From positions 4,536 to 68,535 of the forward strand of contig JAHJIQ010000007.1 in assembly GCA_018823285.1 (NCBI GenBank): a stretch of 64,000 nt of DNA, in the 5' to 3' direction. Each line of letters begins with the position of its first letter. The stretch's first letter is position 1. A program made the position numbers and the translations under genes. Origin of the DNA: Pseudomonadota bacterium (GTDB taxonomy: Bacteria; Desulfobacterota; Desulfobulbia; Desulfobulbales; JAGXFP01). Shown here piece by piece: positions 16,873 through 29,558 of the stretch. The notes beneath the pieces are model-generated. The model searched no databases and was not told the origin of the DNA. It saw only the letters and a list, made by a program, of their open reading frames with translations.

Positions 16873-16949
16873 GCGCCCGTAGCTCAGCCGGATAGAGCAC
16901 CGGCCTTCTAAGCCGTAGGTCACAGGTTCGAATCCTGTCGGGCGTACCA
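16873..16949 (+). tRNA. tRNA-Arg (anticodon TCT), CCA encoded
   Basis: Cloverleaf readable by eye: acceptor GCGCCCG/CGGGCGT, D-arm TAGCTCAGCCGGATAGAGCA, anticodon loop CTTCTAA, T-arm GGTTCGAATCC, 3' ACCA. Confidence 0.9.
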
Positions 16950-17304: not shown

Positions 17305-18588
17305 TCATCTCTCCAGATCACTGAAGATAAAATGGGTGAGGGCTTCTGCTTCCTTCGCGGTAGCGATAAAGGGGGGCATGTATGCTCTTTTATTTCCCAT
17401 ACTCTCATAAATAAAGGTCATGCCTTTGGGTTTCATGCCTTGGGTCAATGAGGTGATGTTGTTGAACGGACCACCGACGGAATGGCAAGAGAGACAGAGA
17501 AGATCAAAGACCTGTCTGCCTGTTTTGCTCATGTTTTCGTCTTTAATCTCCCGGGTATCGACCCATTTTGCTGTATGCAGAATTCCAGCATCTTTTACTG
17601 CATCGATCTCAGTTTTCAGAATCGTGTTTGAGTACATGAAGTTATGAATAATATACGGTCTGCGCCCGCTTTCGCGGATGAATTCAAATGAGCCAAGATA
17701 AAAGAGGCCGAGTACCAGCATGACTGCTGCCAGACCCCGGTTGATGTTGGCAGGCATCTTAATTGCCATACCGAGGCCGCCAAGAATAATCAGAGGTGAA
17801 CAGACAATGAAAATCTTGATTACAGGTTGGATGTCGGGCATGTTTTTAAAAATCAATTCGTGCATGTCCGGGGGCAGGGCGCTTTTGTACCACCATGCGG
17901 AAGTGAGAAAGAGAACAAAGGGGGCCAGAAGCCACTTGGCGCAATAACGGACAAGGGTTGTTCTCAGAGCATCATCTTTTGACCATGAAGCGGTAAGGAA
18001 GCCGAACAGGCCTGCCAACATGATGGCGAGAAAGAATCTGAAAAAGAGGGACGGCCAAAACGTGGGATGAAAAAAACCGTGCCAGAAATTACCAGTGATT
18101 AGCCATTCGCCCGGGGTAAGCATGAAACCTACAATGCCGTTGATCACAAACAGCGATAAGAACGCTGCGGCAAAATATATCCAGCCGATGGTCAGATGGG
18201 TCCTGTTGCTGATTCGGTTGAATGTTTTGTAATAGATAAACAAGGAAATGATCTCGACCAGGAAAAAGACCCACTCGGTGGCCCACGCAAAAACAAAGAG
18301 ATGGATCAGTTTAGAAGTTGCGGCCGGATTTAGAACCGAGATTGTGAACCAGATACCTACTCCGGTCAAAGCCCCGAGCACCATGGTGAGTAGAACAAAA
18401 AGTCGGGTGTGTTTATAAACATACCCTAGGATACTTGGACTGTTTTCACGCAAGCCCTTATGTTCCGTAAGCACCAGAAAAAGTCCGCCGCCGATCGCGA
18501 AATGGGAAATATAGACATGAAGAGTCGCAATCAGGGCAATAAGAAGACCGCCACCGGCAAAGTCTAGTTGCCATACTGGATAGTTCAT
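17305..18588 (-). CDS. Cytochrome bd (CydA)-superfamily-like membrane protein with a fused C-terminal monoheme cytochrome c domain
   Basis: N-terminal TM helices align by eye to CydA (LHVYISHFAIGGGLFLVLTE vs CydA MYHFLFVPLTLG...; ATEWVFFLVE vs AIEGLMAFFLES). The C-terminal ~90 aa carry CLSCH plus a distal Met (YMPPF). Confidence 0.55.
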   Translation of the reverse strand: MNYPVWQLDFAGGGLLIALIATLHVYISHFAIGGGLFLVLTEHKGLRENSPSILGYVYKHTRLFVLLTMVLGALTGVGIWFTISVLNPAATSKLIHLFVFAWATEWVFFLVEIISLFIYYKTFNRISNRTHLTIGWIYFAAAFLSLFVINGIVGFMLTPGEWLITGNFWHGFFHPTFWPSLFFRFFLAIMLAGLFGFLTASWSKDDALRTTLVRYCAKWLLAPFVLFLTSAWWYKSALPPDMHELIFKNMPDIQPVIKIFIVCSPLIILGGLGMAIKMPANINRGLAAVMLVLGLFYLGSFEFIRESGRRPYIIHNFMYSNTILKTEIDAVKDAGILHTAKWVDTREIKDENMSKTGRQVFDLLCLSCHSVGGPFNNITSLTQGMKPKGMTFIYESMGNKRAYMPPFIATAKEAEALTHFIFSDLER

Positions 18589-19655
18589 GACTTACCCTCC
18601 ATTTCACTGCAGACTTTTTTCATCATCCACCATATCAGCCAAATTGCAAAGAGTAGGGCGGTAGAAAAGATGATGAACGGACCGTACACCGGATTGACTG
18701 GTAGCTCGGAGATGTTAATGTAATCCTGCAGATAGCTGTTGCGAGCGATTTCACGGGCAACAGTCATCATCATGATGGTTGCGAGTGTCCACAGTGTAGC
18801 TTTATAAATTCGATAAGATTGAGCATAAATCACTGACAGGGCACAGAATGCAACGGAAGCGATTATCATTATGAAAAAAGCTTTGCCGGCCGGATCAGGC
18901 GTAATAATAATATTGTTTTGCAGGGCGCTCAGGAACCAGAAGCCCACGCCAAAATTGATGATGGTGCTGTAGGTGAACCAGTTGCAGCCGTATGTAATTC
19001 GCTTTTTGCGAGTTTCTTGGGTCAACCCCTGATCACGGTCTGAAAAAACTGCCAGGGATAAACCTCCAACGGCGATCGCAGACAAGATAAAATGAAGATA
19101 TCTGGGAAGCAGGGCTGAGTCGGAAAGATTCAACATCCAACCGCCACGGCAGGAAAAATATCCGAGCCAGCTTGCAGGATCCTGCATGATGCTGATGTTG
19201 TTTGTGAAGAAAAAAGAGATCAGCAGAAACATGGCGATCGGCAGGCCGAGCAACAAGGTCTGGTGACCGCATCTCTCAAACTGGAAATTGTATAAGTATA
19301 CCAGATAGTAACTGATGATAAGAAGGACCACGATAGTCAACCAGAAAGCGGCCATGAGGACTGTGCTGGTATAAAAAAATTGGCCGTATAATGTCTGGAG
19401 GAATAAGAGGGGGGCAACACCGAAATTTATCGTAAATGCCAGCGAGTAGGGGAGGGTCCGGACCAGATCTCTGCTGAGAGAATTTTGTTCTGTGTCAACG
19501 CCGGCCGGTGGCCCGGCAAGTGCAATGAAACCGGAGCCCAGCATAATGTTCATTGCCAGAAAATGAAGAAAAGTGGTTGCTATGAGAAAGATCTGCAGCC
19601 AGACCCAGGAAACCGGAATTGCTTCCGGAGGCGGCATCAGGGAAATAGGATCCAT
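18585..19655 (-). CDS. Polytopic membrane protein, partner of the bd-like cytochrome (related TM1 His motif)
   Basis: 356 aa, about 10 TM helices. FLHFLAMNIMLGSGFIAL resembles TM1 of the downstream gene. 4-nt ATGA overlap with that gene. Confidence 0.5.
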   Translation of the reverse strand: MDPISLMPPPEAIPVSWVWLQIFLIATTFLHFLAMNIMLGSGFIALAGPPAGVDTEQNSLSRDLVRTLPYSLAFTINFGVAPLLFLQTLYGQFFYTSTVLMAAFWLTIVVLLIISYYLVYLYNFQFERCGHQTLLLGLPIAMFLLISFFFTNNISIMQDPASWLGYFSCRGGWMLNLSDSALLPRYLHFILSAIAVGGLSLAVFSDRDQGLTQETRKKRITYGCNWFTYSTIINFGVGFWFLSALQNNIIITPDPAGKAFFIMIIASVAFCALSVIYAQSYRIYKATLWTLATIMMMTVAREIARNSYLQDYINISELPVNPVYGPFIIFSTALLFAIWLIWWMMKKVCSEMEGKS

Positions 19656-20367: not shown

Positions 20368-20491
20368 TGTTGATCCTTGCTGTGATTCTGATAAGAGAAG
20401 AGCCGTCATTCTTTCCAGTATTGAAGAAAGAATGACGGCTCATGTTGTTTTCAGGGATGGAGAAACTCCAACCCTGGATTGCGATCAGAGT

Positions 20492-20854
20492 CTATTTGCC
20501 GCTGGTCTGGATCTTGTCACCCTTAGACTCATCAATAATAATGACATCCCCATGGATGGTGCTTCCCGCACCCATGACAACACTATTCATGTTGTTGTCT
20601 CCGCTCCCGGAAGAGGAACTGGAACTGGAGGAAGAAGCACCCCTCTGGGCGCTATGCTGGGCAACTGCAGCCTGTGATTTGGAATTCATGATGATGAATT
20701 TGATGTTCTTGTCGCCCTTTCCCATGTCATCATAACTGGCGATACCGTCGTCAGTGGATTTTGATATGCCGTCATCTAGATCATCGGCCATGGCAACACC
20801 AAAGCATGAAAAGAGGAGCAGTGATAATAGTAAAAACAATTTGATATTTTTCAT
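20492..20854 (-). CDS. Small secreted protein with a poly-Ser tract and one degenerate copy of the locus repeat
   Basis: Signal peptide MKNIKLFLLLSLLLFSCFGVAMA/DD, an S9 run, then NNMNSVVMGAGSTIHGDVIII, which resembles the NxA(V/I)GxGxxAxxGSV core of the neighbouring repeat proteins. Confidence 0.6.
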   Translation of the reverse strand: MKNIKLFLLLSLLLFSCFGVAMADDLDDGISKSTDDGIASYDDMGKGDKNIKFIIMNSKSQAAVAQHSAQRGASSSSSSSSSGSGDNNMNSVVMGAGSTIHGDVIIIDESKGDKIQTSGK

Positions 20855-20945
20855 CTTACATCCCTCAAATCAATTGACCTTTAACATCAAAACCAAATCA
20901 ACAGGCTGTTATTAGCTGATCAAAATAATAACAGAGGTTTATCCA

Positions 20946-21881
20946 TTATTCAACAGTAACTGATCCCATGCTGGCTTCGGAACCAGCACCAATGGCAACG
21001 TTAGCAGACTTGTCAACATTGGCTTTGTTGGAAATTGTGCCTTTGATGTCCGCATTCTTGATGGTGACAGAACCCATATTTGCGGTAGCGCCCTTACCAA
21101 TGGCAACGTTTGCTGACTTGCTGACGTTAGACTGGTTGGAAACAGTGCCTTTCACATTAGCTCTGTCCAAAGTCACGGAACCCATATTGGCAGTAGCGCC
21201 TTGACCGATGGCAACGTTAGCAGACTTGTCAACATTAGCCTTGTTGGAAACAGTCCCTTTAATGTTGCTGTTTTTCATGGTAACAGAACCCATATTTGCG
21301 GTAGCGCCCTTGCCGATGGCAACGTTTGCGGACTTGCTGACGTTAGAGCGGTTGGAAACGGTGCCCTGCACACTGCCCCTTTCCATGGTAACTGAGCCCA
21401 TGTTGGCGGTAGCGCCCTGGCCGATAGCAACGTTGGCGGATTTGTCGACGTTGGCCCGGTTTGAAATGGTGCCCTTTACATTACCACCCTTCACAGTTAC
21501 AGAACCCATATTGGCGGTAGCGCCCTTGCCAATGGCAACGTTTGCGGACTTGCTGACATTGGACTGGTTGGAAACAGTGCCTTTGATATTAGCCCTGTCA
21601 AGAGACACGGAACCCATGTTGGCGGTAGCGCCCTGACCGATGGCAACGTTTGCAGACTTGTCAACATTGGACTTGTTGGAAACGGTGCCTTGAATGTTGG
21701 AGCCTTTAACGCCTACCGAACCCATCCTGGCGGTGGCACCCTTACCGATGGCAACGTTTGCGGACTTGCTGACATTGGACTGGTTGGAAACAGTACCTTT
21801 AATGTCGGATTTTGCCATTGAGGCAGTTGAAAAACCCATGACCAGACTTAATGCTGTTACTGCGATGACTGCTTTCTTCAT
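20946..21881 (-). CDS. Secreted tandem-repeat protein, 8 x 36-aa repeats (curlin-like core NVAIGxGATANMGSV)
   Basis: Signal peptide ...STASMA/KSD, then eight head-to-tail 36-aa units (GTVSNxSNVxKSANVAIGxGATANMGSVxxxxxxxK) that alternate between two subtypes. Strong RBS aaggagggg. Confidence 0.8.
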   Translation of the reverse strand: MKKAVIAVTALSLVMGFSTASMAKSDIKGTVSNQSNVSKSANVAIGKGATARMGSVGVKGSNIQGTVSNKSNVDKSANVAIGQGATANMGSVSLDRANIKGTVSNQSNVSKSANVAIGKGATANMGSVTVKGGNVKGTISNRANVDKSANVAIGQGATANMGSVTMERGSVQGTVSNRSNVSKSANVAIGKGATANMGSVTMKNSNIKGTVSNKANVDKSANVAIGQGATANMGSVTLDRANVKGTVSNQSNVSKSANVAIGKGATANMGSVTIKNADIKGTISNKANVDKSANVAIGAGSEASMGSVTVE

Positions 21882-21929
21882 TTTAACCCCTCCTTAAGTG
21901 GTTGTTTAGAAGTGTGGACACCCGCGCTT

Positions 21930-24900
21930 CTACTTCATGATAACTGAGTTTTTGTTGGACTTGCTGCCACCGGTGGCGACATTGATATTCTGTCCGAAAC
22001 TGAAGGGAGAATCAGTGTCGTTCACCGTAATACCTCTACCTGATGAAACCGATACATTGCCATTCACAGTGCCACTTTTTATAATTACGGCGCCGGAATT
22101 GGCTTCAGAACCGGATCCGACAGCGGCATTTACTGCCACCATACCGCCGTGGACATTGGTTGAAACATTGCCCCGGACGGTGCTGTTTTCGATTTTGGTG
22201 GTGCCCATGTTGGCCTCGGAATTGCTGCCGACTGCGACATTAATGGCCCCTCCACGAACCTTATTGGTGATATTGCCGCCGACATTGCTGTTTCTGATGA
22301 TTGTCGCGGCCTGGTTGGCTTCAGCTCTGCTGCCGACGGCGACGTTCAGTGCTCCACCCCCAACTGTATTCTTGATGTTCCCGCGGACCGTGCTGTTTTC
22401 GATGTTGGTGGCCGCCTGATTGGCTATCGCACGATTCCCGACGGCAACGTTCAGTGCTGCACCACCCACAGTGTTGGTGATGTTGCCCTTAACATCGCTG
22501 TTTTCGATGTTGGTAGCTGCCTGATTGGCAACTGTACGGTTTCCCACTGCTACGTTCAAAGCCGCGCCGGCAACCTGATTGTTTACATTTCCGGAAACAT
22601 TGCTGTTTTTTATCTTCAAGGCTGCCTGATTGGCCTCTGATCTGTTGCCCACCGCAACATTCAGGGCGGCTCCGCCGACTGTGTTCTTAGCAGTGCCTTT
22701 GAAGCTGCTGTTTTCCATCTTGACCGCAGCCTGGTTGGCCTCTACCCTGTTGCCCACTGCGACGTTTAGAGCAGCACCGGCAACTGTGTTTACTGCATTT
22801 CCGCTGAAACTGCTGTTTTCCATTTTGACGGCGGCCTGGTTGGCTTCGGCCCTGTTGCCCACAGCAACGTTCAGAGCAGCTCCGGCAACGGTGTTTACCG
22901 CATTGCCTTTGAAGCTGCTGTTCTCCATTTTGACCGCAGCCTGATTAGCCTCAGCCCTGTTGCCTACTGCAACGTTCAGGCCAGCCCCAGCCACGGTGTT
23001 CACTGCGTTGCCGCTGAAATTGCTGTTCTCCATTTTAACGGCGGCCTGGTTGGCCTCTACCCTGTTCCCCACAGCAACGTTCAAGGCGGCGCCGCCAACG
23101 GTATTCACGGCATTGCCCTTGAAGCTGCTGTTTTCCATCTTGACTGCAGCCTGGTTGGCCTCAGCCCTGTTGCCGACAGCGACGTTCAATCCTGCCCCGG
23201 CCACGGTGTTCACCGCATTGCCTTTGAAATCACTGTTTTTCATGTTCACAGCGGCTTGGTTTGCTTCGGCCCGGTTACCAACAGCAACGTTCAGGGCAGC
23301 ACCGCCGACGGTGTTGACGGCATTGCCTTTGAAACTGCTGTTCTCCATCTTGACGGCAGCCTGATTGGCCTCTACCCTGTTCCCCACCGCAACATTCAGG
23401 CCAGCCCCAGCCACGGTGTTCACCGCGTTACCATTGAAGCTGCTGTTTTCCATTTTGACCGCGGCCTGGTTTGCTTCGGCTCTATTGCCGACTGCAACGT
23501 TTAAAGCCGCTCCGCCAACGGTATTGACTGCAGCGCCTTTGAACTCGCTGTTTTTCATGTTCACAGCGGCCTGGTTGGCTTCTGCCCGATTGCCGACAGC
23601 AACGTTAAGAGCGCCGCCGACGACCGTATTAACGGCTGCGCCTTTCATTGTACTGTTTTCCATCTTCAGTGCGGCCTGATTTGCTTCAGCCCGATTCCCT
23701 ACGGCAACGTTAACTGCCCCAAGGGCTCCGATAGAGTTCACAGCGGCACCTTCAAGGCTGCTGTTCTCCATTTTCACTGAGGCCTGGTTGGCTTCAACCC
23801 GGTTGCCGACTGCAACGTTGACCAGGTTCTGACCGATAGCGGTATTGACAATTGCGCCTTTGACCTTGGAGTTCTCCAAGCTGGTTGCGACCTGTCTTGC
23901 TTCAGCCCTGTTGCCGACGCCTACATTGACGAGATTCTGGCCGACGGCACTGTTGACAATCGCGCCGGTAACCGATGAATTATTAAGGTTGGTTGCGGCC
24001 TGGCTTGCGGTGACTCTGTTACCGACGCCTACATTAACCAGATTTTGCCCGACTGCGGTGTTGATGGCTGCACCGGTCATCTGGCTGCCGCTCATTTTAA
24101 TGGAGGCCTGATTGGCTTCGACCCTGTTGCCGACCCCGACGTTAACCATGTTTTGCCCAACAGCGGTATTAATGGCGGCACCGGTGAGCTTTGATTTTTC
24201 CAGGGTTGTTGCTGCCTGGGTGGCATCGACCCTGTTGCCGACTCCGACATTGACCATATTCTGACCGACGGCAGTATTCAAAACGGCGCCGGTCACCTGA
24301 CTGCCGTTCATTTTGATTGACGCCTGGTTGGCTTCGACCCTGTTTCCAACTCCGACATTGATCATGTTTTTACCGACAGCCGTATTTATGGCGGCGCCAG
24401 TCAATTTGCTGTTATCCATTACCACTGAAGACTGGCTCGCTTTGACTCTGTTGCCGACCGCGACGTTAATTGACTGGTCAACCACGGAAGTATTCAGGAT
24501 TGCGCCGGTCGACGTGCTGTTCTCCATGCGGATCGAAGACTGGTTCGCATCAACCTGATTTCCTACAGCGACATTGATGGCATTTTTGCCCATGGCCGTA
24601 TTGATTGCAGCCCCGGTAATATTGCTGTTCTTGGTATTTATTGATGCCTGATTGGCAGAAACTTTGTTGCCAACGGCGACGTTAATGTTCTTGTCAACCA
24701 TGTTGGTGTTGATCGCTGCGCCGGTGAGTTTGCCACCAAGTTTTATTGATCCCTGGGTTGCCTCAGCTTTGTTGCCAACAGCAACGTTGACGTTCTGCTT
24801 TCCTTTATTGGCGTTAATAACCGCGCCGGACATATCAAGATTCTTAAGTGCAACTGAACTCTGATGGGCTGTACTGTCTTTGCCCACCGCTACGTTTACA

Positions 24901-25025
24901 TCTTTGGAAATCTGGTCCGGGATGTTCAGCACCGCGCCCTTTACATTGGACTCGGCTGCAACCGGAGAGACGGCGGTGATGAAAAAACAGGGAGCAAGAA
25001 TCGTCAGCAATAGTACTTTTTTCAT
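21930..25025 (-). CDS. Giant secreted tandem-repeat protein, ~27-28 x 35-36-aa repeats (core NVAVGNRAEANQ)
   Basis: Start at MKKVLLLTILAPCFFITAVSPVAA/ESN (RBS gggagg). The rest of the protein is repeats such as GNAVNTVAGAGLNVAVGNRAEANQAAVKMENSSFK. No Cys or Trp in the mature part and aromatics are scarce. Confidence 0.8.
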   Translation of the reverse strand: MKKVLLLTILAPCFFITAVSPVAAESNVKGAVLNIPDQISKDVNVAVGKDSTAHQSSVALKNLDMSGAVINANKGKQNVNVAVGNKAEATQGSIKLGGKLTGAAINTNMVDKNINVAVGNKVSANQASINTKNSNITGAAINTAMGKNAINVAVGNQVDANQSSIRMENSTSTGAILNTSVVDQSINVAVGNRVKASQSSVVMDNSKLTGAAINTAVGKNMINVGVGNRVEANQASIKMNGSQVTGAVLNTAVGQNMVNVGVGNRVDATQAATTLEKSKLTGAAINTAVGQNMVNVGVGNRVEANQASIKMSGSQMTGAAINTAVGQNLVNVGVGNRVTASQAATNLNNSSVTGAIVNSAVGQNLVNVGVGNRAEARQVATSLENSKVKGAIVNTAIGQNLVNVAVGNRVEANQASVKMENSSLEGAAVNSIGALGAVNVAVGNRAEANQAALKMENSTMKGAAVNTVVGGALNVAVGNRAEANQAAVNMKNSEFKGAAVNTVGGAALNVAVGNRAEANQAAVKMENSSFNGNAVNTVAGAGLNVAVGNRVEANQAAVKMENSSFKGNAVNTVGGAALNVAVGNRAEANQAAVNMKNSDFKGNAVNTVAGAGLNVAVGNRAEANQAAVKMENSSFKGNAVNTVGGAALNVAVGNRVEANQAAVKMENSNFSGNAVNTVAGAGLNVAVGNRAEANQAAVKMENSSFKGNAVNTVAGAALNVAVGNRAEANQAAVKMENSSFSGNAVNTVAGAALNVAVGNRVEANQAAVKMENSSFKGTAKNTVGGAALNVAVGNRSEANQAALKIKNSNVSGNVNNQVAGAALNVAVGNRTVANQAATNIENSDVKGNITNTVGGAALNVAVGNRAIANQAATNIENSTVRGNIKNTVGGGALNVAVGSRAEANQAATIIRNSNVGGNITNKVRGGAINVAVGSNSEANMGTTKIENSTVRGNVSTNVHGGMVAVNAAVGSGSEANSGAVIIKSGTVNGNVSVSSGRGITVNDTDSPFSFGQNINVATGGSKSNKNSVIMK

Positions 25026-25323
25026 AGCGGCCCTCCCGGAACGCCTGAAGGCTGTTCCAGAATTGAGATTGTTCATTTATTACTGGTCAGCAAGTGATCG
25101 TATATAATTTCCAAGAGTCAGTGTTACATGCAAAGGTGAATATAATATTCAAAAGAAAGGCTCGTTCTGTTTCTGCCTTGGATACTTGAATAGACATTTG
25201 GAAGCCTTAATAACATAATATGCATTATACAAATGCTCCGCTCAACTGACAGTGAACTTTTGCCAATTTTTCTGTGAACAAATCACTCTTTGTAAATATG
25301 GGTTTTCTGTAAACCATTTGCGG

Positions 25324-25722
25324 TTAATCCCAGGTGAAATCGGCGCTGATTTTTGCAGCGCCGGAGACGTTGGAAACATTCAGAACAGTGTCAAACGACA
25401 CGGACTCTCCGTTCATAATCGGCTGATGCCCCTTTATGGGCATTTCTGTTGAGTGGAGCACGGCACCGGATATTGACAGAATGTGCAGAACAAGGTGCCC
25501 CCGCAGAACAATTCGGGAGATGTTTTTAATGCTTCCTTTCACAATTACTACTTTATTGGCAGGGTGATACTCTGCTTCCATGGAATCAAGAGTGACATAG
25601 GCATATTCCTGATCGGTCGAAGTAAGTGTTTTTCCGATGGCCGAGTTGTCGCTAACAGAGAACAACGTAAGTGCTGTAAGTAGCACAAATACCAGTATGG
25701 TGTTAGAAAGTCTTTTGGTCAT
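25324..25722 (-). CDS. Small secreted/anchored accessory protein (predicted beta-rich)
   Basis: N-terminal hydrophobic signal (MTKRLSNTILVFVLLTALTLFSV). The remainder has alternating beta-strand-like patterns. Lies between the secretion genes and the repeat genes. Confidence 0.5.
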   Translation of the reverse strand: MTKRLSNTILVFVLLTALTLFSVSDNSAIGKTLTSTDQEYAYVTLDSMEAEYHPANKVVIVKGSIKNISRIVLRGHLVLHILSISGAVLHSTEMPIKGHQPIMNGESVSFDTVLNVSNVSGAAKISADFTWD

Positions 25723-25836
25723 AGCCAACGCCTTTTTCAAACACATCATTTTCAGCCCCGGTCTCTTCTCCCTGCCAAAATTATGAGGCCCGGGGTTGAT
25801 TTGGATAAAGCCGCACCATTGTGCGTAATGATATAA

Positions 25837-26133
25837 TCACTTCACTGAACTGAACGGTTTTTTTAATTCGTTTTTAACTATTTTGCTCTCAAGTACAGAC
25901 CCATATTCACGGCTGTATACGGTCCGTGTTTCGCCGGTAACTGTGTCGATAACAAAGGCACCTATAACCCCACCTTTGTCGCCTATGGAAGTTGCCCATG
26001 ACGAAAGCTGATAACGCCCGTTATCGAGAGCAAGAGTTGGGGTTCCTTCAACTTCAATTACCTGGTATGCCCCGGTTAGCAGAAGAAACATCAGGGTGAC
26101 ACCAACGCCGAACAAAAAATATTTGATTTTCAT
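25837..26133 (-). CDS. Small membrane-anchored accessory protein
   Basis: MKIKYFLFGVGVTLMFLLLTGAY... single N-terminal TM, 98 aa, same operon. Confidence 0.5.
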   Translation of the reverse strand: MKIKYFLFGVGVTLMFLLLTGAYQVIEVEGTPTLALDNGRYQLSSWATSIGDKGGVIGAFVIDTVTGETRTVYSREYGSVLESKIVKNELKKPFSSVK

Positions 26134-26170
26134 GATCATCTCCAATTGTCGCAACAGGCTTTTATCGTGA

Positions 26171-26905
26171 TCATTTGGTCTGGGCTCTAGAGAAATCGTC
26201 AGATTGAGCGCCCTGGCCTTCTACCTCTATAAATTCATCCGGATCCAGGATCTTCTGGCCGATAATTTCAGAGACCTCTTTGGTGTCGATTGTGAGTTTC
26301 ACAAAGGCATCGCCAGCGGCGTCCCAGCCGTAGTCTTTCAGCCTGGCAAGGTAGATGGTTGCGAGTACTTTTGATTTAACCACATCTGATTTGAGCATGT
26401 AATTTTCAACGGTCGTCTCACTTTCCAGGGTGAAGCCGACTATCCGTTTTGCAAGTTGTTTGTAAGCATCAATTTCTGCGGCACGCAATGCGCCAAGAGG
26501 GGCAACCATTGCAGGGGTGGAGGTTGCAAAACCGACCCGGGTAAAAGACTTGCCGTTAAAATTCATCGGCATGCCGTCGATGTTCTCAAACTCGTTAAGA
26601 GTGATCGTGGCGGTGGCTTTGGCAATGTCTTTTTCGGCGTCGTAGACCACTTCATCGATTTTGACGCCCCGGATCTCAGCTTTGGTCTTTGATTCGGTCC
26701 GGCCTTCAAAGCTCGTTGCCATCATGTTTTCCACCGACTCGGTGGATCTGATTTTGAGTCCGTAAATTGCCTCTACGATTGCTCGCTCAGCTATAATCTT
26801 AGCGGCTCTGGTGGTCATGATTTTTTTGTTGCCGGCCAGTGCCGTTAATGGTGAGCATAATAGGGCTATTGCGATCAGGATTGTTGAAATTCTAAGGATG
26901 CGCAT
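26171..26905 (-). CDS. LPP20-like periplasmic/lipoprotein-family protein (two LPP20-type repeats)
   Basis: Signal peptide, then two copies of A-R-A-A-x-I-x-A...L-x-x-x-I-x-G-x-x-I/L-x-S-x-T-x-V-E-N (TTRAAKIIAERAIVEAIYGLKIRSTESVENMM; GALRAAEIDAYKQLAKRIVGFTLESETTVENYM). RBS gggagga. Confidence 0.5.
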   Translation of the reverse strand: MRILRISTILIAIALLCSPLTALAGNKKIMTTRAAKIIAERAIVEAIYGLKIRSTESVENMMATSFEGRTESKTKAEIRGVKIDEVVYDAEKDIAKATATITLNEFENIDGMPMNFNGKSFTRVGFATSTPAMVAPLGALRAAEIDAYKQLAKRIVGFTLESETTVENYMLKSDVVKSKVLATIYLARLKDYGWDAAGDAFVKLTIDTKEVSEIIGQKILDPDEFIEVEGQGAQSDDFSRAQTK

Positions 26906-26989
26906 GTTTGTTCCTCCCTGCATGTATATCATTCAGTTTCTGAAAATTGTTAATTGTTATTATGATAACACCCGTTAAACAGGCAGATT

Positions 26990-28345
26990 TTACCATTCAT
27001 CGTCTTTCAGTTTACGACCAAAACCGAACCCGGCTCTCTTTGGTGCAGCCGCCGGAGCGGGAGCGGCTTCGGGTTGAGCGGCTGGAGCGGCCTGGGCCTG
27101 GGCAATTTCCTGGTCGGCATATACCGCAGTTTCAACGTTCTGGGCAACCGGAGCAGCAGCAACCTGTGGGGTGGAGGCAGCATTCGCTTCTGCGGCCATC
27201 GCCGCCTCGTACAGGATATTGTTCAACGCTTTGCGGCGTGCACGGGCTTCATCACGGAAAGGCATGGTGGTATAAATTGCAATAAACTGGTCCTTGGATA
27301 TTTTCTTGCTGCCGATCTGGTAGGCGGGATCAAATTTTGCCAATGCGGCTTCGGTCTGAGAGTCAAGCTGACCGGTCATTTGAAGATCGTAGCCGTGAAT
27401 GTAAAGCCATTGCTGCACTGCTGCGGTTTTGGCGGCATCATCCATCGAGTAGTATATTTCTTCCAATGATTCCAGCACGATCGGGTCTGGATTTGCATCG
27501 TCTCCAAGCAATCTCCAGTATGGAAGATTGAGATATTTACCGATCATTTGTACCATACTGACCTGAACGAGCAGACGAACCGCTTCATGGCGCCCCTGTA
27601 CTTTTTTGACGGAACCCTTCAGTCCGAAAGTCGGGCCGAAAAGAGTAAGGCCGATCTCTTTTTCCTTCATGGCTTTGTGGACTTCCATACTGTTGGTGGT
27701 GGTCATTTTCGGGATGCCGGTCAACGTGTTGGGATCTATCATATTAAAATCAATGGTGATACGCGCCTTGCCGGTTTTTCCGGTGTTGCCGAAGTTTGCC
27801 CCAACTTGTTCTGATGGCAGGGAGGTTTTGATTCCCTTGATATTGGCAGTTGCAGCGGCATCCATTCCTTCTCCTCTGGTTTCAAGTCCCCTGTCGAATT
27901 CGGTGATGCCACCGGTTAATACCACATCGGGTTTGATTTTGTTCTCAAAGGAAGAGTATCCGGTGACCATCTGGTTCTGAATAAAGGCCGGGTCGTAGGG
28001 GACATAGCCAACACCGCCACCTATCGAGTTCAGGGTGCTTTTCATGATCTCGGTAATATTCCTCTGGATTTCGCCACCGGTTGTAGCGGCGGTGCCTGTA
28101 TTGTCGGCAATGTCGGTGGACATTATATTGACAAGGCCGGTATCATAGACACCGGTCATGATTCCCAGTTCCGAGAGGGCTTTATTGTATGAAGTAATTT
28201 TGACTTCCGGAGCTGATTCTTCAAGCTCAACATCCACGTCGCGCGGGTCCATCCCTCCGCATGAAACGACCAACGGCAGAAATGCAGCCAGCAATGTACT
28301 CCACAGGATCTTTCTGAATAATGCGCCTGAAGTATTAACGCTCAT
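26990..28345 (-). CDS. CsgG/HfaB-family-like outer-membrane lipoprotein with a C-terminal peptidoglycan-binding-like domain and an Ala/Pro/Gln-rich tail
   Basis: Lipobox LVVSC. Segments alignable by eye to E. coli CsgG (DVVLTGGITEFD vs NIMVEGSIIGYE; ARITIDFNMIDPNTLTGI vs IAVNLRVVNVSTGEIL). QQWLYIHGYDLQMTGQLDSQTEAALAKF resembles PG_binding_1. Confidence 0.6.
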   Translation of the reverse strand: MSVNTSGALFRKILWSTLLAAFLPLVVSCGGMDPRDVDVELEESAPEVKITSYNKALSELGIMTGVYDTGLVNIMSTDIADNTGTAATTGGEIQRNITEIMKSTLNSIGGGVGYVPYDPAFIQNQMVTGYSSFENKIKPDVVLTGGITEFDRGLETRGEGMDAAATANIKGIKTSLPSEQVGANFGNTGKTGKARITIDFNMIDPNTLTGIPKMTTTNSMEVHKAMKEKEIGLTLFGPTFGLKGSVKKVQGRHEAVRLLVQVSMVQMIGKYLNLPYWRLLGDDANPDPIVLESLEEIYYSMDDAAKTAAVQQWLYIHGYDLQMTGQLDSQTEAALAKFDPAYQIGSKKISKDQFIAIYTTMPFRDEARARRKALNNILYEAAMAAEANAASTPQVAAAPVAQNVETAVYADQEIAQAQAAPAAQPEAAPAPAAAPKRAGFGFGRKLKDDEW

Positions 28346-28901
28346 GATCTTCCTCTCCATTTCTAACTTAATTAGGATATTAATATATTAAATAAGTGGA
28401 ACCCATATCAAAGAAGGTCGGGTTTGGAACCTCGACATGTAGAGTTTTCCACTCCTAGATTACATAGAGCTGAGTATTAAAGTCAACAAATAAAGTTCCA
28501 GCAAAAACCGGCTTTCGGGACGTGGTGTACAATCATGGAAAAGATCGTGTTGTCAGGGTCTTGGCTCGATTTGTGCTGTCGGCTCGATGTCATGAATCCA
28601 TTATATATCTCAGTGTTACAAATAAACCGTGAAGTTTGTTGCCTGATTTTTGTGATTTAATAACACCTAAAGATTTTTTACAGGTAACAACAGTTTGGCA
28701 AAAGGTGCAATAGGTTGTCAGAAATATATTCCGCCTGTTTTCGCTAATTTTCAAGTTGAACGAGCAGTTGGCCGGGGGATGATATGTGCTGTGCAGAGGT
28801 GTAATTTGCTAGGAGAGAGTTATAATTCGATTGAAAAAGTGGCATCTTGCTGTAATCTGTTAAATGCTGCCAAATGAACAATAAAATGGAAGGTGGATGC
28901 A

Positions 28902-29558
28902 ATGGATGAAATTTTTGCTGAAAATGAGCTATTCTCCGGTCTTGAGAAAAAAGATCGGGACATCATCATGGCGGTGGCTGCTAAAAAGAGTTTCCCGAAG
29001 AATACGGTGATACTCAGTCAGGGAGATGACACGCACTCGTTGTATATAGTCACGAGTGGCAAGGTTAAAGTTAATATTGTCGATGAGAACGGCAAAGAGA
29101 TAATTTTGTCAATTCTTGGCCCGGGCGATTATTTCGGTGAGATGACCGCTATAGAGGAAGGCGCTTCAAGGAGCGCTTCGGTCGTTACCCGGGAAAAGTG
29201 TGAGGTGCTGGTTCTTGCCAAAAAGGATTTCCGGAGGATTATTTCGGACAATCCGGACATTGTGTTCGGGCTGTTAAGAGGAGCCAATGAAAGGATCCGG
29301 AAAGCCAACCGGAAAATTGAAAGCCTTGCCCTTATGGATGTATATGGCCGGGTGGCAAGGCTTTTCATGCAGCTTGCGGTTCCTGATGGTGACAAGCTGG
29401 TTATTCAGGAGAAGCTTACGCATCAGGATATTGCCAACATGGTCGGATCATCAAGGGAAATGGTCAGCAGGGTCATGAAAGAACTGACCATTGGAAATTA
29501 TATTGGCGTCACACAAAAAATCATTGAGATCAATGGCAAGCTGCCATATTCGTGGTAG
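28902..29558 (+). CDS. Crp/Fnr-family transcription regulator (cNMP-binding domain plus HTH)
   Basis: GDYFGEMTAIE...RSASVV cNMP-binding signature and a C-terminal HTH (THQDIANMVGSSREMVSRVMKEL). Divergent from the CsgG-like operon across a ~540-bp AT-rich spacer. Confidence 0.85.
   Translation: MDEIFAENELFSGLEKKDRDIIMAVAAKKSFPKNTVILSQGDDTHSLYIVTSGKVKVNIVDENGKEIILSILGPGDYFGEMTAIEEGASRSASVVTREKCEVLVLAKKDFRRIISDNPDIVFGLLRGANERIRKANRKIESLALMDVYGRVARLFMQLAVPDGDKLVIQEKLTHQDIANMVGSSREMVSRVMKELTIGNYIGVTQKIIEINGKLPYSW

What the first reader, a model, noticed from the sequence alone, without database searches (positions are those of the whole stretch)
20492..28345. Divergent curli-like (type VIII secretion-like) fibre locus: CsgG-like and LPP20-like lipoproteins plus three secreted tandem-repeat proteins
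Seven co-oriented genes (an eighth, hypothetical and cytoplasmic, follows downstream). They encode a CsgG/HfaB-like lipoprotein with an added PG-binding-like domain, an LPP20-like protein, two small signal-anchored proteins, a ~1031-aa protein made of ~27 repeats, a 311-aa protein made of 8 repeats, and a 120-aa protein with one degenerate repeat. The repeat core NVAVG-N-x-A-x-A-N-Q reproduces the curlin G-N-x-A-x3-Q signature. However, the repeat unit is 35-36 aa rather than ~22 aa, and the large protein is far longer than known CsgA proteins. The three-protein set (large, medium, and a single-repeat cap/nucleator candidate) together with a dedicated outer-membrane channel looks like an extracellular beta-solenoid/amyloid fibre machine of a type I do not recognise as described. 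A Crp/Fnr regulator sits divergently across a ~540-bp AT-rich spacer.
Basis: partly seen in the sequence, partly recalled or inferred. Interest (0 to 1): 0.88.

Follow-up and report, generated by a model that had tools for sequence, protein, structure and literature searches.

The report
CsgG-like channel with novel repeat proteins
This is a real and widely conserved but undescribed gene cluster of anaerobic sediment bacteria that pairs a curli-type (CsgG-fold) outer-membrane lipoprotein with secreted 36-residue-repeat proteins unrelated to any known family, so it probably builds a new kind of cell-surface fibre or rod.

Summary
Seven co-oriented minus-strand genes (20492-28345) encode a lipoprotein, an LPP20/FlgP-like protein, two small exported proteins, and three Sec-signal repeat proteins: 27 x 35-36 aa, 7.5 x 36 aa, and a half repeat.

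- **Channel.** The 451-aa lipoprotein misses the Pfam CsgG cut-off (18.8 vs 20.8 bits). Its AlphaFold model nevertheless matches CsgG structures first and over their full length (Foldseek E 3e-7). The family also conserves two amphipathic beta-hairpins where CsgG has its membrane hairpins.
- **Repeat proteins.** They model confidently (pLDDT 91.5) as all-beta solenoids with one 36-residue coil per repeat. They match no Pfam family and no solved structure, including CsgA.
- **Curlin signature.** The motif is an 11-residue resemblance (hhalign 2%). It is absent from most relatives.
- **Conservation.** The lipoprotein, the LPP20-like protein, the 105-aa and 120-aa proteins and two classes of repeat protein stay linked across a gene-order rearrangement. 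This holds in at least 70 of 80 loci from Desulfobacterota, Nitrospirota and Campylobacterota.

No paper describing the system was found. My best reading is a type VIII-like export and assembly system for a new beta-solenoid subunit, with confidence about 0.55. Export and polymerisation are inferred, not shown.

The parts
26990..28345 (-). G: 451-aa lipoprotein with a CsgG-fold core (about residues 57-285), two predicted amphipathic beta-hairpins, a PG-binding-like helical domain (about 290-395), and an Ala/Pro-rich tail that ends in the conserved motif GFGRxLSDxEW
   Evidence: Lipobox LVVSC. Pfam CsgG 18.8 bits against a 20.8 cut-off, and PG_binding_1 17.9 bits. In the family, 12/29 members hit CsgG and 21/29 hit PG_binding_1 below threshold. 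AF2 model: pLDDT 67.7. The first 22 Foldseek PDB hits are all CsgG, best E 2.9e-7. hhalign against E. coli CsgG: E 5e-4, probability 31%, 204 columns. Alternating hydrophobic columns at 166-176/184-194 and 236-242/245-253.
26171..26932 (-). L: 244/253-aa periplasmic protein with tandem LPP20/FlgP-like domains; it has a Sec signal and no canonical lipobox
   Evidence: Pfam LPP20 25.8 bits against a 25.9 cut-off. 26 of 27 family members hit LPP20, best E 3.5e-10. The family profile hits FlgP-type lipoproteins in the PDB: 9hmf_C at 3.4e-6 and 8z5n FlgP at 5.9e-4. Present in 74/81 loci.
25837..26154 (-). s105: small protein with an N-terminal hydrophobic anchor or signal and a conserved core, GRYQISSWAT..GAFVxDTVSGETKTVY. 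It shows a weak resemblance to the C-terminal part of CsgF
   Evidence: Alignment A3. Pfam CsgF hits 10/26 members, best E 0.0011, all below cut-off, covering only profile positions 92-129. hhalign against E. coli CsgF gives 1.3% probability. NCBI names it 'curli assembly protein CsgF'. Present in 55/81 loci.
25324..25749 (-). s141: small secreted protein that is only loosely associated with the system (its position and strand vary between genomes)
   Evidence: No Pfam hit. Found in 25/81 loci. It lies on the opposite strand in sister loci L004-L007 and L046.
21930..25076 (-). big: 1031-aa (ORF 1048) secreted repeat protein with 27 units of 35-36 aa. It belongs to the 'big' class, defined by the conserved C-terminus SNKNSV[VI][MFY]K
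   Evidence: No meaningful Pfam or NCBIfam hit. The class C-terminus is conserved in about 23 loci. Purifying selection acts on the repeats.
20946..21881 (-). mid: 311-aa secreted repeat protein with 7.5 units of 36 aa. It belongs to the 'mid' class, defined by the conserved C-terminus EA[SN]MGSVxV[EK]
   Evidence: AF2: pLDDT 91.5, pTM 0.88, all-beta, with strands of 13+5+4+4 residues per 36-aa unit. No PDB match: best Foldseek E 0.024 and TM at most 0.22. Profile against the PDB: nothing. phmmer against 1.84 billion representatives: 122 hits.
20492..20854 (-). s120: small secreted protein. Its mature N-terminus, DLDDGIS..., is invariant and acidic; a Gly/Ser linker and a repeat-like C-terminal segment NMNSVVxGAGSxVxGDIIIIDxSKGDKTQ follow. 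It is a candidate nucleator, anchor or cap
   Evidence: Alignment A6. Present in 75/81 loci, and immediately upstream of G in the common gene order. hhalign against CsgB 9%, CsgF 0.6%, and the repeat unit 2%, so homology is not shown.
20400..20441 (-). Terminator-like hairpin (17-bp stem) that closes the operon after s120
   Evidence: This is a consensus scan only.
28382..28411 (-). Promoter-like site (TTGATA-18-TATATT) upstream of G. A second one lies at 25224-25252 upstream of big
   Evidence: This is a consensus scan only; 17 sites were found against 10 expected.
28893..29558 (+). Divergent Crp/Fnr-family regulator, a neighbour only in the query's subclade
   Evidence: Pfam cNMP_binding 95.6 bits and HTH_Crp_2 45.9 bits. 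Adjacent in 10/81 loci. No conserved Crp/Fnr-type site in 8 spacers.

Best explanation
The locus encodes a type VIII-like (curli-like in logic) export and assembly system for a new class of beta-solenoid repeat protein.

**Proposed mechanism.**
1. The two repeat proteins (big and mid) and the 120-aa protein cross the inner membrane by Sec.
2. They reach the cell surface through an oligomeric outer-membrane channel. The channel is formed by the CsgG-fold lipoprotein G, which is tied to peptidoglycan by its C-terminal domain.
3. Export is assisted on the periplasmic side by the ring-forming-type LPP20/FlgP-like protein L and by the small protein s105.
4. Outside the cell, the repeat proteins fold into stacks of 36-residue coils and probably join head to tail into rods or fibres. 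Every subunit begins and ends at the same point of the repeat, which fits this.
5. The 120-aa protein carries a single repeat-like segment and an invariant acidic N-terminus. It is the candidate that anchors, nucleates or caps the structure at the channel.

**What is shown and what is inferred.** The gene set, its conservation, the CsgG fold, LPP20 membership and the predicted all-beta repeat fold are shown. Channel formation, export route, polymerisation and the role of s120 are inferred.
For: 1. **G has a CsgG fold.** The first 22 Foldseek hits are all CsgG chains (best 6l7c_A: E 2.9e-7, probability 1.0, 262-285 aligned columns against targets of about 250 residues). FlgT, HpaA, PelC and GNA1162 score lower and cover only about 200 columns. 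Weak but concordant sequence signals come from Pfam CsgG and hhalign.
2. **Hairpins sit where CsgG has them.** The two low-confidence segments of the model (159-194, 231-254) lie in the positions of the CsgG membrane hairpins. Across 29 family members they show alternating hydrophobic and polar columns, with a PxWxPS tip. G is a lipoprotein, with its lipobox Cys conserved in at least 90% of members.
3. **The linkage survives a rearrangement.** Among 81 loci from at least four phyla, s120 is present in 75, L in 74, repeat proteins in 70 and s105 in 55. The order is REP-REP-s120-G-(c5)-L-s105 in most, but G-L-s105-s141-REP-REP-s120 in the query's clade.
4. **The cargo looks secreted, and no other route is encoded nearby.** The repeat proteins have Sec signals, no lipobox and no appended beta-barrel or other known domain. 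They contain almost no aromatic residues, and big is 16% Asn.
5. **The cargo is predicted to be ordered.** The mid protein models at pLDDT 91.5 as a regular all-beta repeat. Its only weak structural neighbours are parallel beta-helices.
6. **Two conserved subunit classes.** There are two paralogous classes with distinct conserved C-termini, and all subunits start and end in the same repeat register. This parallels the major/minor subunit logic of curli.
7. **A weak CsgF signal.** The conserved core of s105 weakly resembles the C-terminal part of CsgF.
Against: - G fails the Pfam CsgG cut-off, and a family profile finds no CsgG in PDB sequences.
- TM-scores to CsgG are modest (0.44-0.55 normalised to the target), and the hairpins are modelled with low confidence.
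- The CsgG constriction-loop residues are not conserved: the loop is shorter and lacks aromatic residues.
- No CsgE, and no CsgF N-terminal plug, is detectable.
- The repeat proteins show no detectable homology to CsgA or CsgB.
- The oligomeric state, export and fibres cannot be tested with these tools.
- AlphaFold is known to give confident solenoids for repetitive sequences, and the alignment had only 12 rows.
- The PG-binding domain and the FlgP-like partner would also fit a purely periplasmic scaffold.
Confidence: 0.55

Rival explanations
1. The system builds a periplasmic or envelope-bound structure and does not secrete anything. G and L would form peptidoglycan-anchored rings under the outer membrane, as PelC, FlgT and FlgP do. 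The repeat proteins would stay in the periplasm or on the inner face of the outer membrane, as an envelope layer or scaffold.
For: - G carries a PG-binding-like domain.
- L belongs to the LPP20/FlgP family, whose solved members form flagellar basal-disk rings.
- The fold shared with PelC, FlgT, HpaA and GNA1162 also appears among the Foldseek hits.
- Many related loci add a DegP-like trypsin-PDZ protease and further CsgG/LpoB-like and FlgT_N-like proteins.
Against: - CsgG is the best and longest structural match, ahead of the ring-only relatives.
- The two amphipathic hairpins are conserved across the family; ring-only relatives lack them (general knowledge of the PelC and LpoB structures).
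- The C-terminus of CsgG is periplasmic (general knowledge of the CsgG structures), so a PG-binding domain is compatible with a channel.
Confidence: 0.2
2. This is a true but extremely diverged curli system. The repeat proteins would be degenerate curlins in which both arcs of the strand-arc-strand unit have grown (7+12+7+9 residues instead of 7+4+7+4-5). G and s105 would be orthologues of CsgG and CsgF. On this reading the locus is a divergent member of a known family, not a new subunit type.
For: - The big protein has one literal N-x-A-x-A-x-Q motif per unit, and a second degenerate one (N-A-V-N-T-V-A) 12 residues later.
- Sleutel et al. 2023 (PMC10192328) describe a 'degenerate' curlin class with much longer repeats caused by arc insertions, and subunits that end in half repeats.
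- Weak CsgG and CsgF signals are present.
- NCBI labels s105 as CsgF.
Against: - No repeat protein hit Curlin_rpt, among 33 family members plus big.
- hhalign against CsgA gives 1-2% over 11-12 residues.
- The N..Q motif is missing from the mid class and from most big-class relatives.
- The repeat length of 36 aa is outside the reported 23 +/- 5.
- The predicted coil has four strands (13+5+4+4), not a two-strand arch.
- No Foldseek hit to the CsgA structures 8enq or 8c50, which are in the library.
- No CsgE, CsgC or CsgH is present.
Confidence: 0.15
3. The neighbourhood is incidental. The repeat proteins would be ordinary adhesins, S-layer proteins or ice-binding-type proteins exported by another route, and G/L would serve an unrelated envelope function.
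For: - Copies of the same 36-aa repeat occur at the C-terminus of FecR-domain proteins that lie outside G loci. The repeat is therefore not strictly tied to G.
- Eight of 33 relatives give weak pentapeptide-repeat hits.
Against: - Co-occurrence is seen in 70 of 81 loci across phyla and is preserved through a rearrangement. Most loci without repeat genes are cut by a contig end where those genes would lie; L003 is the one clear exception.
- No type I, V or IX secretion signal or domain was found.
- The Pfam hits are scattered and inconsistent, as expected from summed repeat matches.
Confidence: 0.05

Closest known systems
Curli / type VIII secretion system (CsgA, CsgB, CsgE, CsgF, CsgG of E. 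coli)
   Same: - A lipoprotein with the CsgG fold and two hairpins in the CsgG positions.
- Sec-dependent, Asn-rich tandem-repeat subunits predicted to stack as a beta-solenoid.
- Two paralogous subunit classes plus small accessory proteins in one conserved cluster.
- One accessory protein with a weak CsgF-like C-terminal motif.
   Different: - The repeat is 36 aa with four strands per coil, not 19-23 aa with two strands.
- There is no Curlin_rpt match and no detectable homology to CsgA or CsgB.
- G is 451 aa with an added PG-binding-like domain and tail. It has a longer first hairpin and a shorter constriction loop without aromatic residues.
- There is no CsgE, CsgC, CsgH or CsgD, and no N22-type targeting segment.
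- Extra partners are not part of curli: the LPP20/FlgP-like L and s120, and in other genomes c5, a DUF2807 protein and a trypsin-PDZ protease.
- The genes form a single operon rather than two divergent ones.
Caulobacter holdfast anchor (HfaA, HfaB, HfaD), in which the CsgG-like lipoprotein HfaB is needed for surface anchor proteins (from general knowledge; papers listed were not read)
   Same: A CsgG-family lipoprotein is genetically linked to non-curlin surface proteins that form stable multimers.
   Different: No homology of the repeat proteins or s120 to Hfa proteins was tested or seen. The taxa and the accessory genes differ. I did not compare G directly with HfaB.
LPP20 / FlgP / FlgT flagellar basal-disk and related periplasmic ring lipoproteins; PelC
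   Same: L is a member of the LPP20/FlgP family. The alpha/beta core of G shares the fold of FlgT, HpaA, PelC and GNA1162.
   Different: There are no flagellar genes in the locus. L lacks a lipobox. G has the additional hairpins and matches CsgG better than it matches the ring-only proteins.
Fap functional amyloid system of Pseudomonas (FapA-F)
   Same: The concept is the same: a dedicated operon encoding major and minor repeat subunits together with an outer-membrane exporter.
   Different: The Fap exporter FapF is a beta-barrel, not a CsgG-type lipoprotein, and Fap subunits have three repeats (PMC12822426). No sequence similarity was seen here.

Membership tests
CsgG (Pfam PF03783; curli secretion channel) | Scores at or above the curated Pfam gathering threshold | tested here: not met
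   18.8 bits against a 20.8 cut-off, covering only profile positions 91-139. 12 of 29 family members hit at E<0.1, best 0.0011. One relative (P0115) carries a precomputed PF03783 hit. A family profile finds no CsgG among PDB sequences.
CsgG (Pfam PF03783; curli secretion channel) | CsgG three-dimensional fold over the full protomer | tested here: met
   The AF2 model's first 22 Foldseek hits are all CsgG chains: E 2.9e-7 to 3e-5, probability 1.0, 213-292 aligned columns, TM 0.44-0.55 normalised to the target. hhalign against E. coli CsgG gives 204 columns, E 5e-4, probability 31%.
CsgG (Pfam PF03783; curli secretion channel) | N-terminal lipoprotein signal with lipobox cysteine | tested here: met
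   LVVSC is read from the sequence. C34 is conserved in at least 90% of 29 relatives.
CsgG (Pfam PF03783; curli secretion channel) | Two amphipathic transmembrane beta-hairpins per protomer | tested here: inconclusive
   Alternating hydrophobic and polar columns at 166-176/184-194 and 236-242/245-253, in the positions aligned to the CsgG hairpins. These segments are modelled with pLDDT below 50, and the first hairpin is about 16 residues longer than in E. coli.
CsgG (Pfam PF03783; curli secretion channel) | Constriction loop with stacked Tyr/Asn/Phe residues | tested here: not met
   The aligned loop is 5 residues shorter. It reads DNTGTsxTTGGEI, invariant in the family, with no aromatic residue.
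CsgG (Pfam PF03783; curli secretion channel) | Nonameric 36-strand outer-membrane pore | not testable with these tools
   No multimer prediction or experiment is available here.
Curlin repeat proteins CsgA/CsgB (Pfam PF07012) | Match to the Curlin_rpt model | tested here: not met
   No hit at E<=1 for big, mid or s120, and none at E<=0.1 among 33 relatives. phmmer of E. coli CsgA and CsgB against the relatives finds nothing.
Curlin repeat proteins CsgA/CsgB (Pfam PF07012) | Repeat of about 23 +/- 5 aa made of two N-x-Psi-x-Psi-x-Q motifs joined by short arcs (PMC10192328) | tested here: not met
   The period is 36/72 aa in nearly all relatives, and 35 aa only in the big protein of the query's clade. 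There is one literal motif per unit in big, and none in mid or in most relatives. hhalign against CsgA gives 2% over 11 residues.
Curlin repeat proteins CsgA/CsgB (Pfam PF07012) | Two-sheet strand-arc-strand beta-solenoid | tested here: inconclusive
   The model is all-beta and periodic, but with four strands per 36-aa unit. No Foldseek hit to CsgA 8enq or 8c50, although both are in the library. Coordinates could not be inspected.
CsgF (Pfam PF10614) | Match above the Pfam cut-off, including the N-terminal segment that plugs the CsgG barrel | tested here: not met
   s105 scores 13.5 bits against a 25.8 cut-off. 10/26 relatives hit, best E 0.0011, always at profile positions 92-129 only. hhalign probability is 1.3%. 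Only about 10 residues lie between the hydrophobic N-terminus and the conserved core.
LPP20 / FlgP (Pfam PF02169) | Match to the LPP20 model | tested here: met
   The window protein scores 25.8 bits against a 25.9 cut-off. 26 of 27 relatives match, best E 3.5e-10. The family profile hits FlgP-type lipoproteins in the PDB.
LPP20 / FlgP (Pfam PF02169) | Lipoprotein anchoring | tested here: not met
   No conserved Cys. The consensus cleavage region is AxA|GNKK (and the sequence).
Peptidoglycan-binding domain PG_binding_1 (Pfam PF01471), in the C-terminal part of G | Match to the model | tested here: inconclusive
   17.9 bits against a 23 cut-off. 21/29 relatives hit at E<0.1, best 9.8e-5. The PDB profile hit 5tv7 (a PG-binding protein) has E 0.12. 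The domain is modelled as helices with pLDDT above 90.

The most novel reading that the evidence does not exclude
This would be a second, evolutionarily separate class of CsgG-dependent surface fibre. Its subunit would be a new beta-solenoid with a 36-residue, four-strand coil that does not descend from curlin. Its channel would be fused to a peptidoglycan anchor. Its small nucleator or anchor protein (s120) would have no counterpart in curli. The system would be widespread in sulfate-, sulfur- and metal-respiring sediment bacteria (Desulfobacterota, Nitrospirota, Campylobacterota).
Probability: 0.4. Interest if true: 0.78.

Novelty: new variant of a known kind. Interest (0 to 1): 0.62.

Why it matters
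CsgG-type channels are known in detail for only one cargo, curlin. They are of practical interest as nanopores and as a chassis for engineered living materials.

If confirmed, this locus would show several things:
- A conserved CsgG-fold channel can be dedicated to an unrelated, wider beta-solenoid subunit, so the type VIII route is more versatile than thought.
- It would supply a new, very regular repeat scaffold: 36 residues, almost no aromatic residues, rich in Asn.
- It would give a candidate for the unknown surface structures of environmentally important anaerobes.

The system is present in at least 192 species-level genomes. It is missed by curli surveys that search with curlin-repeat models (PMC12822426).

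Tried and rejected
- **Curlin homology.** Pfam, NCBIfam, hhalign of the repeat unit and of the family against E. coli CsgA and CsgB, phmmer of all E. coli Csg proteins, and a family profile against the PDB were all negative or noise.
- **Apparent CsgE hits.** Pfam CsgE hits in 2 of 33 repeat proteins were not reproduced with E. coli CsgE. I read them as summed repeat artefacts, like the Hirudin, LBP_C and DNA_ligase_OB hits in the same list.
- **s105 as CsgF.** Only a weak C-terminal motif was found.
- **s120 as CsgB or CsgF.** Not supported.
- **Regulation.** No Rfam family, including riboswitches, was found in the locus. No Crp- or Fnr-type palindrome is conserved in eight Crp-G spacers. Only short palindromes occur in the spacer.
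- **Phase variation.** s141 is inverted in sister genomes, so I looked for flanking inverted repeats. Only chance-level 12-nt matches were found. I read the inversion as an evolutionary difference, not as a switch.
- **FecR-repeat fusion proteins.** The context I checked (L083) has no G-type genes.
- **Cable-bacteria fibre idea.** Rejected. The family occurs in many bacteria that are not cable bacteria, and the repeat proteins are almost devoid of Cys and aromatic residues.
- **Literature.** Six full-text searches found no description of this system.

Full report
**Source and observation**

The window is part of contig JAHJDD010000024.1 of assembly GCA_018812685.1, a metagenome-assembled 'Proteobacteria bacterium'. 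The closest relatives of its proteins come from Desulfobulbales and Desulfurivibrionaceae.

Likely starts are 28345 for G and 25025 for the large repeat protein. For G, a GGAGAGG Shine-Dalgarno sequence lies 6 nt upstream of that ATG. NCBI's gene calls agree with both starts.

Export signals can be read from the sequences:
- G has a lipobox (LVVSC).
- L, big, mid and s120 have Sec-type signal peptides.
- s105 has a hydrophobic N-terminus of about 20 residues.

The big protein has 27 units of 34-37 aa. The mid protein has 7 full units of 36 aa plus a half unit, with a 72-aa super-period.

The repeats are coding and old. Among 14 units of big, amino-acid identity (76.5%) exceeds nucleotide identity (71%), with 1302 synonymous against 749 non-synonymous codon differences.

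A terminator-like hairpin with a 17-bp stem (20441-20400) follows s120 and separates it from the eighth, cytoplasmic ORF. Promoter-like sites lie upstream of G and of big. The divergent Crp/Fnr gene and the spacer of about 547 bp (GC 0.40) are as described.

**The lipoprotein G**

By sequence, the link to CsgG is weak.
- Pfam CsgG scores 18.8 bits against a cut-off of 20.8, covering one stretch only.
- 12 of 29 relatives give sub-threshold hits.
- A family profile finds no CsgG among PDB sequences.
- hhalign against E. coli CsgG gives E 5e-4 and 31% probability over 204 columns.

By structure, the link is clear.
- An AlphaFold model built from 29 sequences has mean pLDDT 67.7. The alpha/beta core and the C-terminal helical domain score 85-95.
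- Its first 22 Foldseek matches in the PDB are all CsgG chains: best E 2.9e-7, probability 1.0, and 262-285 columns against targets of about 250 residues.
- FlgT, HpaA, PelC, GNA1162 and LptE follow with shorter alignments.

The two low-confidence segments of the model (159-194 and 231-254) fall where CsgG has its two membrane hairpins. Across the family they show strictly alternating hydrophobic and polar columns, with a conserved PxWxPS tip on the first hairpin and GPT on the second.

G also differs from CsgG in several ways:
- The first hairpin is longer.
- The constriction loop is shorter and reads DNTGTsxTTGGEI, without aromatic residues.
- A confident helical domain (about 290-395) gives sub-threshold PG_binding_1 hits in 21 of 29 relatives.
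- An Ala/Pro-rich tail ends in an invariant ...GFGRxLSDxEW.

NCBI's name for G, 'DUF4384 domain-containing protein', was not reproduced by Pfam.

**The accessory proteins**

- **L.** It is a member of the LPP20/FlgP family. 26 of 27 relatives match, best E 3.5e-10. The family profile finds FlgP-type lipoproteins of flagellar basal disks in the PDB. L has no lipobox.
- **s105.** It has a strongly conserved core that weakly resembles the C-terminal part of CsgF. Ten of 26 relatives hit, best E 0.0011, always at profile positions 92-129. hhalign gives 1.3% probability, and nothing corresponds to the CsgF N-terminal plug. NCBI nevertheless labels it 'curli assembly protein CsgF'.
- **s141.** It is a real secreted protein family, but its position and strand vary between genomes.

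**The repeat proteins**

No Pfam or NCBIfam family matches big, mid or s120 in a meaningful way. A scan of 33 relatives gives only scattered, mutually inconsistent hits, typical of summed repeat matches. The commonest are pentapeptide repeats, in 8 of 33. There is no Curlin_rpt hit.

hhalign of the repeat unit and of the family against E. coli CsgA aligns only 11-12 residues (VAVGNRAxANQ with VGFGNNATAHQ), at 1-2% probability.

Across 64 relatives the period is 36 or 72 aa almost everywhere. It is 35 aa only in the big protein of the query's clade. The N-x-Psi-x-Psi-x-Q motif that defines curlin strands (PMC10192328) occurs in the big proteins of a few clades and not at all in the mid class. 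The 'curlin signature' is therefore a local, clade-limited resemblance.

AlphaFold models mid at pLDDT 91.5 and pTM 0.88 as a perfectly periodic all-beta protein. Each 36-aa unit has strands of 13, 5, 4 and 4 residues. I read this as one wide coil per repeat. I could not inspect the coordinates.

Foldseek finds no significant PDB neighbour: best E 0.024, TM at most 0.22. The weak hits are parallel beta-helices of many kinds. The CsgA structures 8enq and 8c50 are in the library but are not among the hits.

A full HMMER scan of 1.84 billion representative proteins finds only 122 relatives at E<=1e-3.

**The system is a conserved unit**

A scan of one genome per species found 192 loci that encode a G relative, and 80 of them were fetched. 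Counting the window's own locus, 81 loci were examined:

| Component | Loci with it (of 81) |
|---|---|
| s120 | 75 |
| L | 74 |
| Repeat proteins | 70 |
| s105 | 55 |
| s141 | 25 |
| Crp/Fnr neighbour | 10 |
| Eighth ORF | 7 |

Most loci without repeat genes are cut by a contig end exactly where those genes would lie. L003 is the one clear exception.

The usual order is big-mid-s120-G-(c5)-L-s105. The query's clade has G-L-s105-s141-big-mid-s120. The linkage therefore survives a rearrangement.

The carriers include:
- Desulfobulbales and Desulfobacterales;
- Desulfuromonadales, including the isolate Geomonas sp. Red32;
- Nitrospirota;
- a Sulfurospirillaceae MAG;
- candidate division FCPU426.

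Many loci carry further genes that the window lacks:
- a small secreted protein c5 between G and L;
- a DUF2807/GIN-domain protein (78-93 bits);
- a trypsin-PDZ protease;
- a short CsgG/LpoB-like lipoprotein (29.8 bits, above the CsgG cut-off);
- an FlgT_N-like protein.

The repeat proteins fall into two classes with distinct, conserved C-termini. The big class ends ...SNKNSV[VI][MFY]K. The mid class ends ...EA[SN]MGSVxV[EK].

Both classes start with the second half of a unit right after the signal peptide and end after the first half. Subunits stacked head to tail would therefore continue the repeat without a break. This is an inference.

s120 is the most distinctive marker. Its mature N-terminus, DLDDGIS..., is invariant and acidic. 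A linker follows, then NMNSVVxGAGSxVxGDIIIIDxSKGDKTQ, which lines up with part of a repeat unit and with the big-class C-terminus. The statistical support for that alignment is poor: 2% against the repeat unit and 9% against CsgB.

**Mechanism**

The best-supported reading is a type VIII-like pathway. Its steps are Sec export, passage through an oligomeric G channel anchored to peptidoglycan, periplasmic assistance by L and s105, and folding and stacking of the repeat proteins outside the cell. s120 would act as anchor, nucleator or cap.

- Shown: the gene content, its conservation, the CsgG fold, LPP20 membership and the predicted ordered beta fold.
- Inferred: pore formation, route, polymerisation and roles.

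The main rival keeps everything in the periplasm as a ring-and-layer scaffold. The PG-binding domain and the FlgP-like partner fit that view. The conserved hairpins, and the better and longer match to CsgG than to ring-only relatives, argue against it.

A second rival is that this is simply a very diverged curli system. Sleutel et al. describe degenerate curlins with long arc insertions. However, no test of homology passed here, and the predicted coil topology differs.

**Comparison and novelty**

The locus works like curli in outline, but it fails the membership tests for curlin and for CsgF. It meets only the structural test for CsgG, and it adds partners unknown in curli.

Six full-text searches found no description of it. 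The latest GTDB-wide curli survey requires curlin-repeat hits and would miss it (PMC12822426).

I class it as a new variant of a known kind. If the subunit proves unrelated to curlin, it would be a second class of CsgG-dependent fibre.

**Limits**

- No multimer modelling was possible, and model coordinates could not be accessed.
- The alignment behind the repeat-protein model was shallow (12 rows).
- AlphaFold tends to be over-confident on repeats.
- There is no expression or localisation data.

Noticed in passing
P0129-P0135; L083:8001-8990: Proteins with an N-terminal FecR domain (PF04773) carry 2-3 copies of the same 36-aa repeat at their C-terminus, and end like the mid class (...ANMGTIVID). 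The one context I examined has no G-type genes; the gene sits next to an apolipoprotein N-acyltransferase gene.
   Followed up: partly
window 25837-26133 and 26990-28345: Public annotation is inconsistent. NCBI names s105 'curli assembly protein CsgF' and G 'DUF4384 domain-containing protein'. Neither name is reproduced by current Pfam or NCBIfam models at their cut-offs.
   Followed up: yes
L008, L010, L012, L017, L023, L025, L043 and others, 1-8 kb downstream of G: Related loci carry extra conserved genes that are absent from the window: a small secreted protein between G and L (c5, mature N-terminus AGNKEMVE), a DUF2807/GIN-domain protein, a trypsin-PDZ protease, a short CsgG/LpoB-like lipoprotein (in some cases fused to a longer C-terminal region that I did not scan), and an FlgT_N/LPP20-like protein.
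   Followed up: partly
window 25324-25749; L004-L007, L046: The s141 gene is co-oriented with the operon in the window but lies on the opposite strand at the same position in the closest relatives. No convincing flanking inverted repeats were found.
   Followed up: yes
L015 (JAIWHJ010000475.1, 2396 bp): A G/s120 locus sits on a short, low-coverage contig binned as a 'Promethearchaeota archaeon'. It is 54-56% identical to the bacterial proteins, so it is most likely a binning contaminant rather than an archaeal copy.
   Followed up: no
L026 and L027 (one MAG); P0112 and P0116 (one Desulforhopalus MAG): Some genomes appear to hold two copies of the G locus.
   Followed up: no
window 17305-19655 (minus strand): Two adjacent polytopic membrane proteins lie just downstream of the locus. 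The 427-aa one has a weak cytochrome bd subunit I hit and a C-terminal CxxCH haem-c motif (LCLSCHS). There is no evident link to the repeat locus.
   Followed up: no
window 20968-24864 (plus strand): Many long antisense ORFs (70-160 aa, Leu/Pro/Thr/Ala-rich) overlap the repeat genes. They are by-products of the repeat composition, and the longest-ORF picking used sometimes kept the antisense frame in related loci.
   Followed up: yes
window 16873-16946: A single tRNA gene is the only Rfam match in the whole 64-kb window.
   Followed up: no
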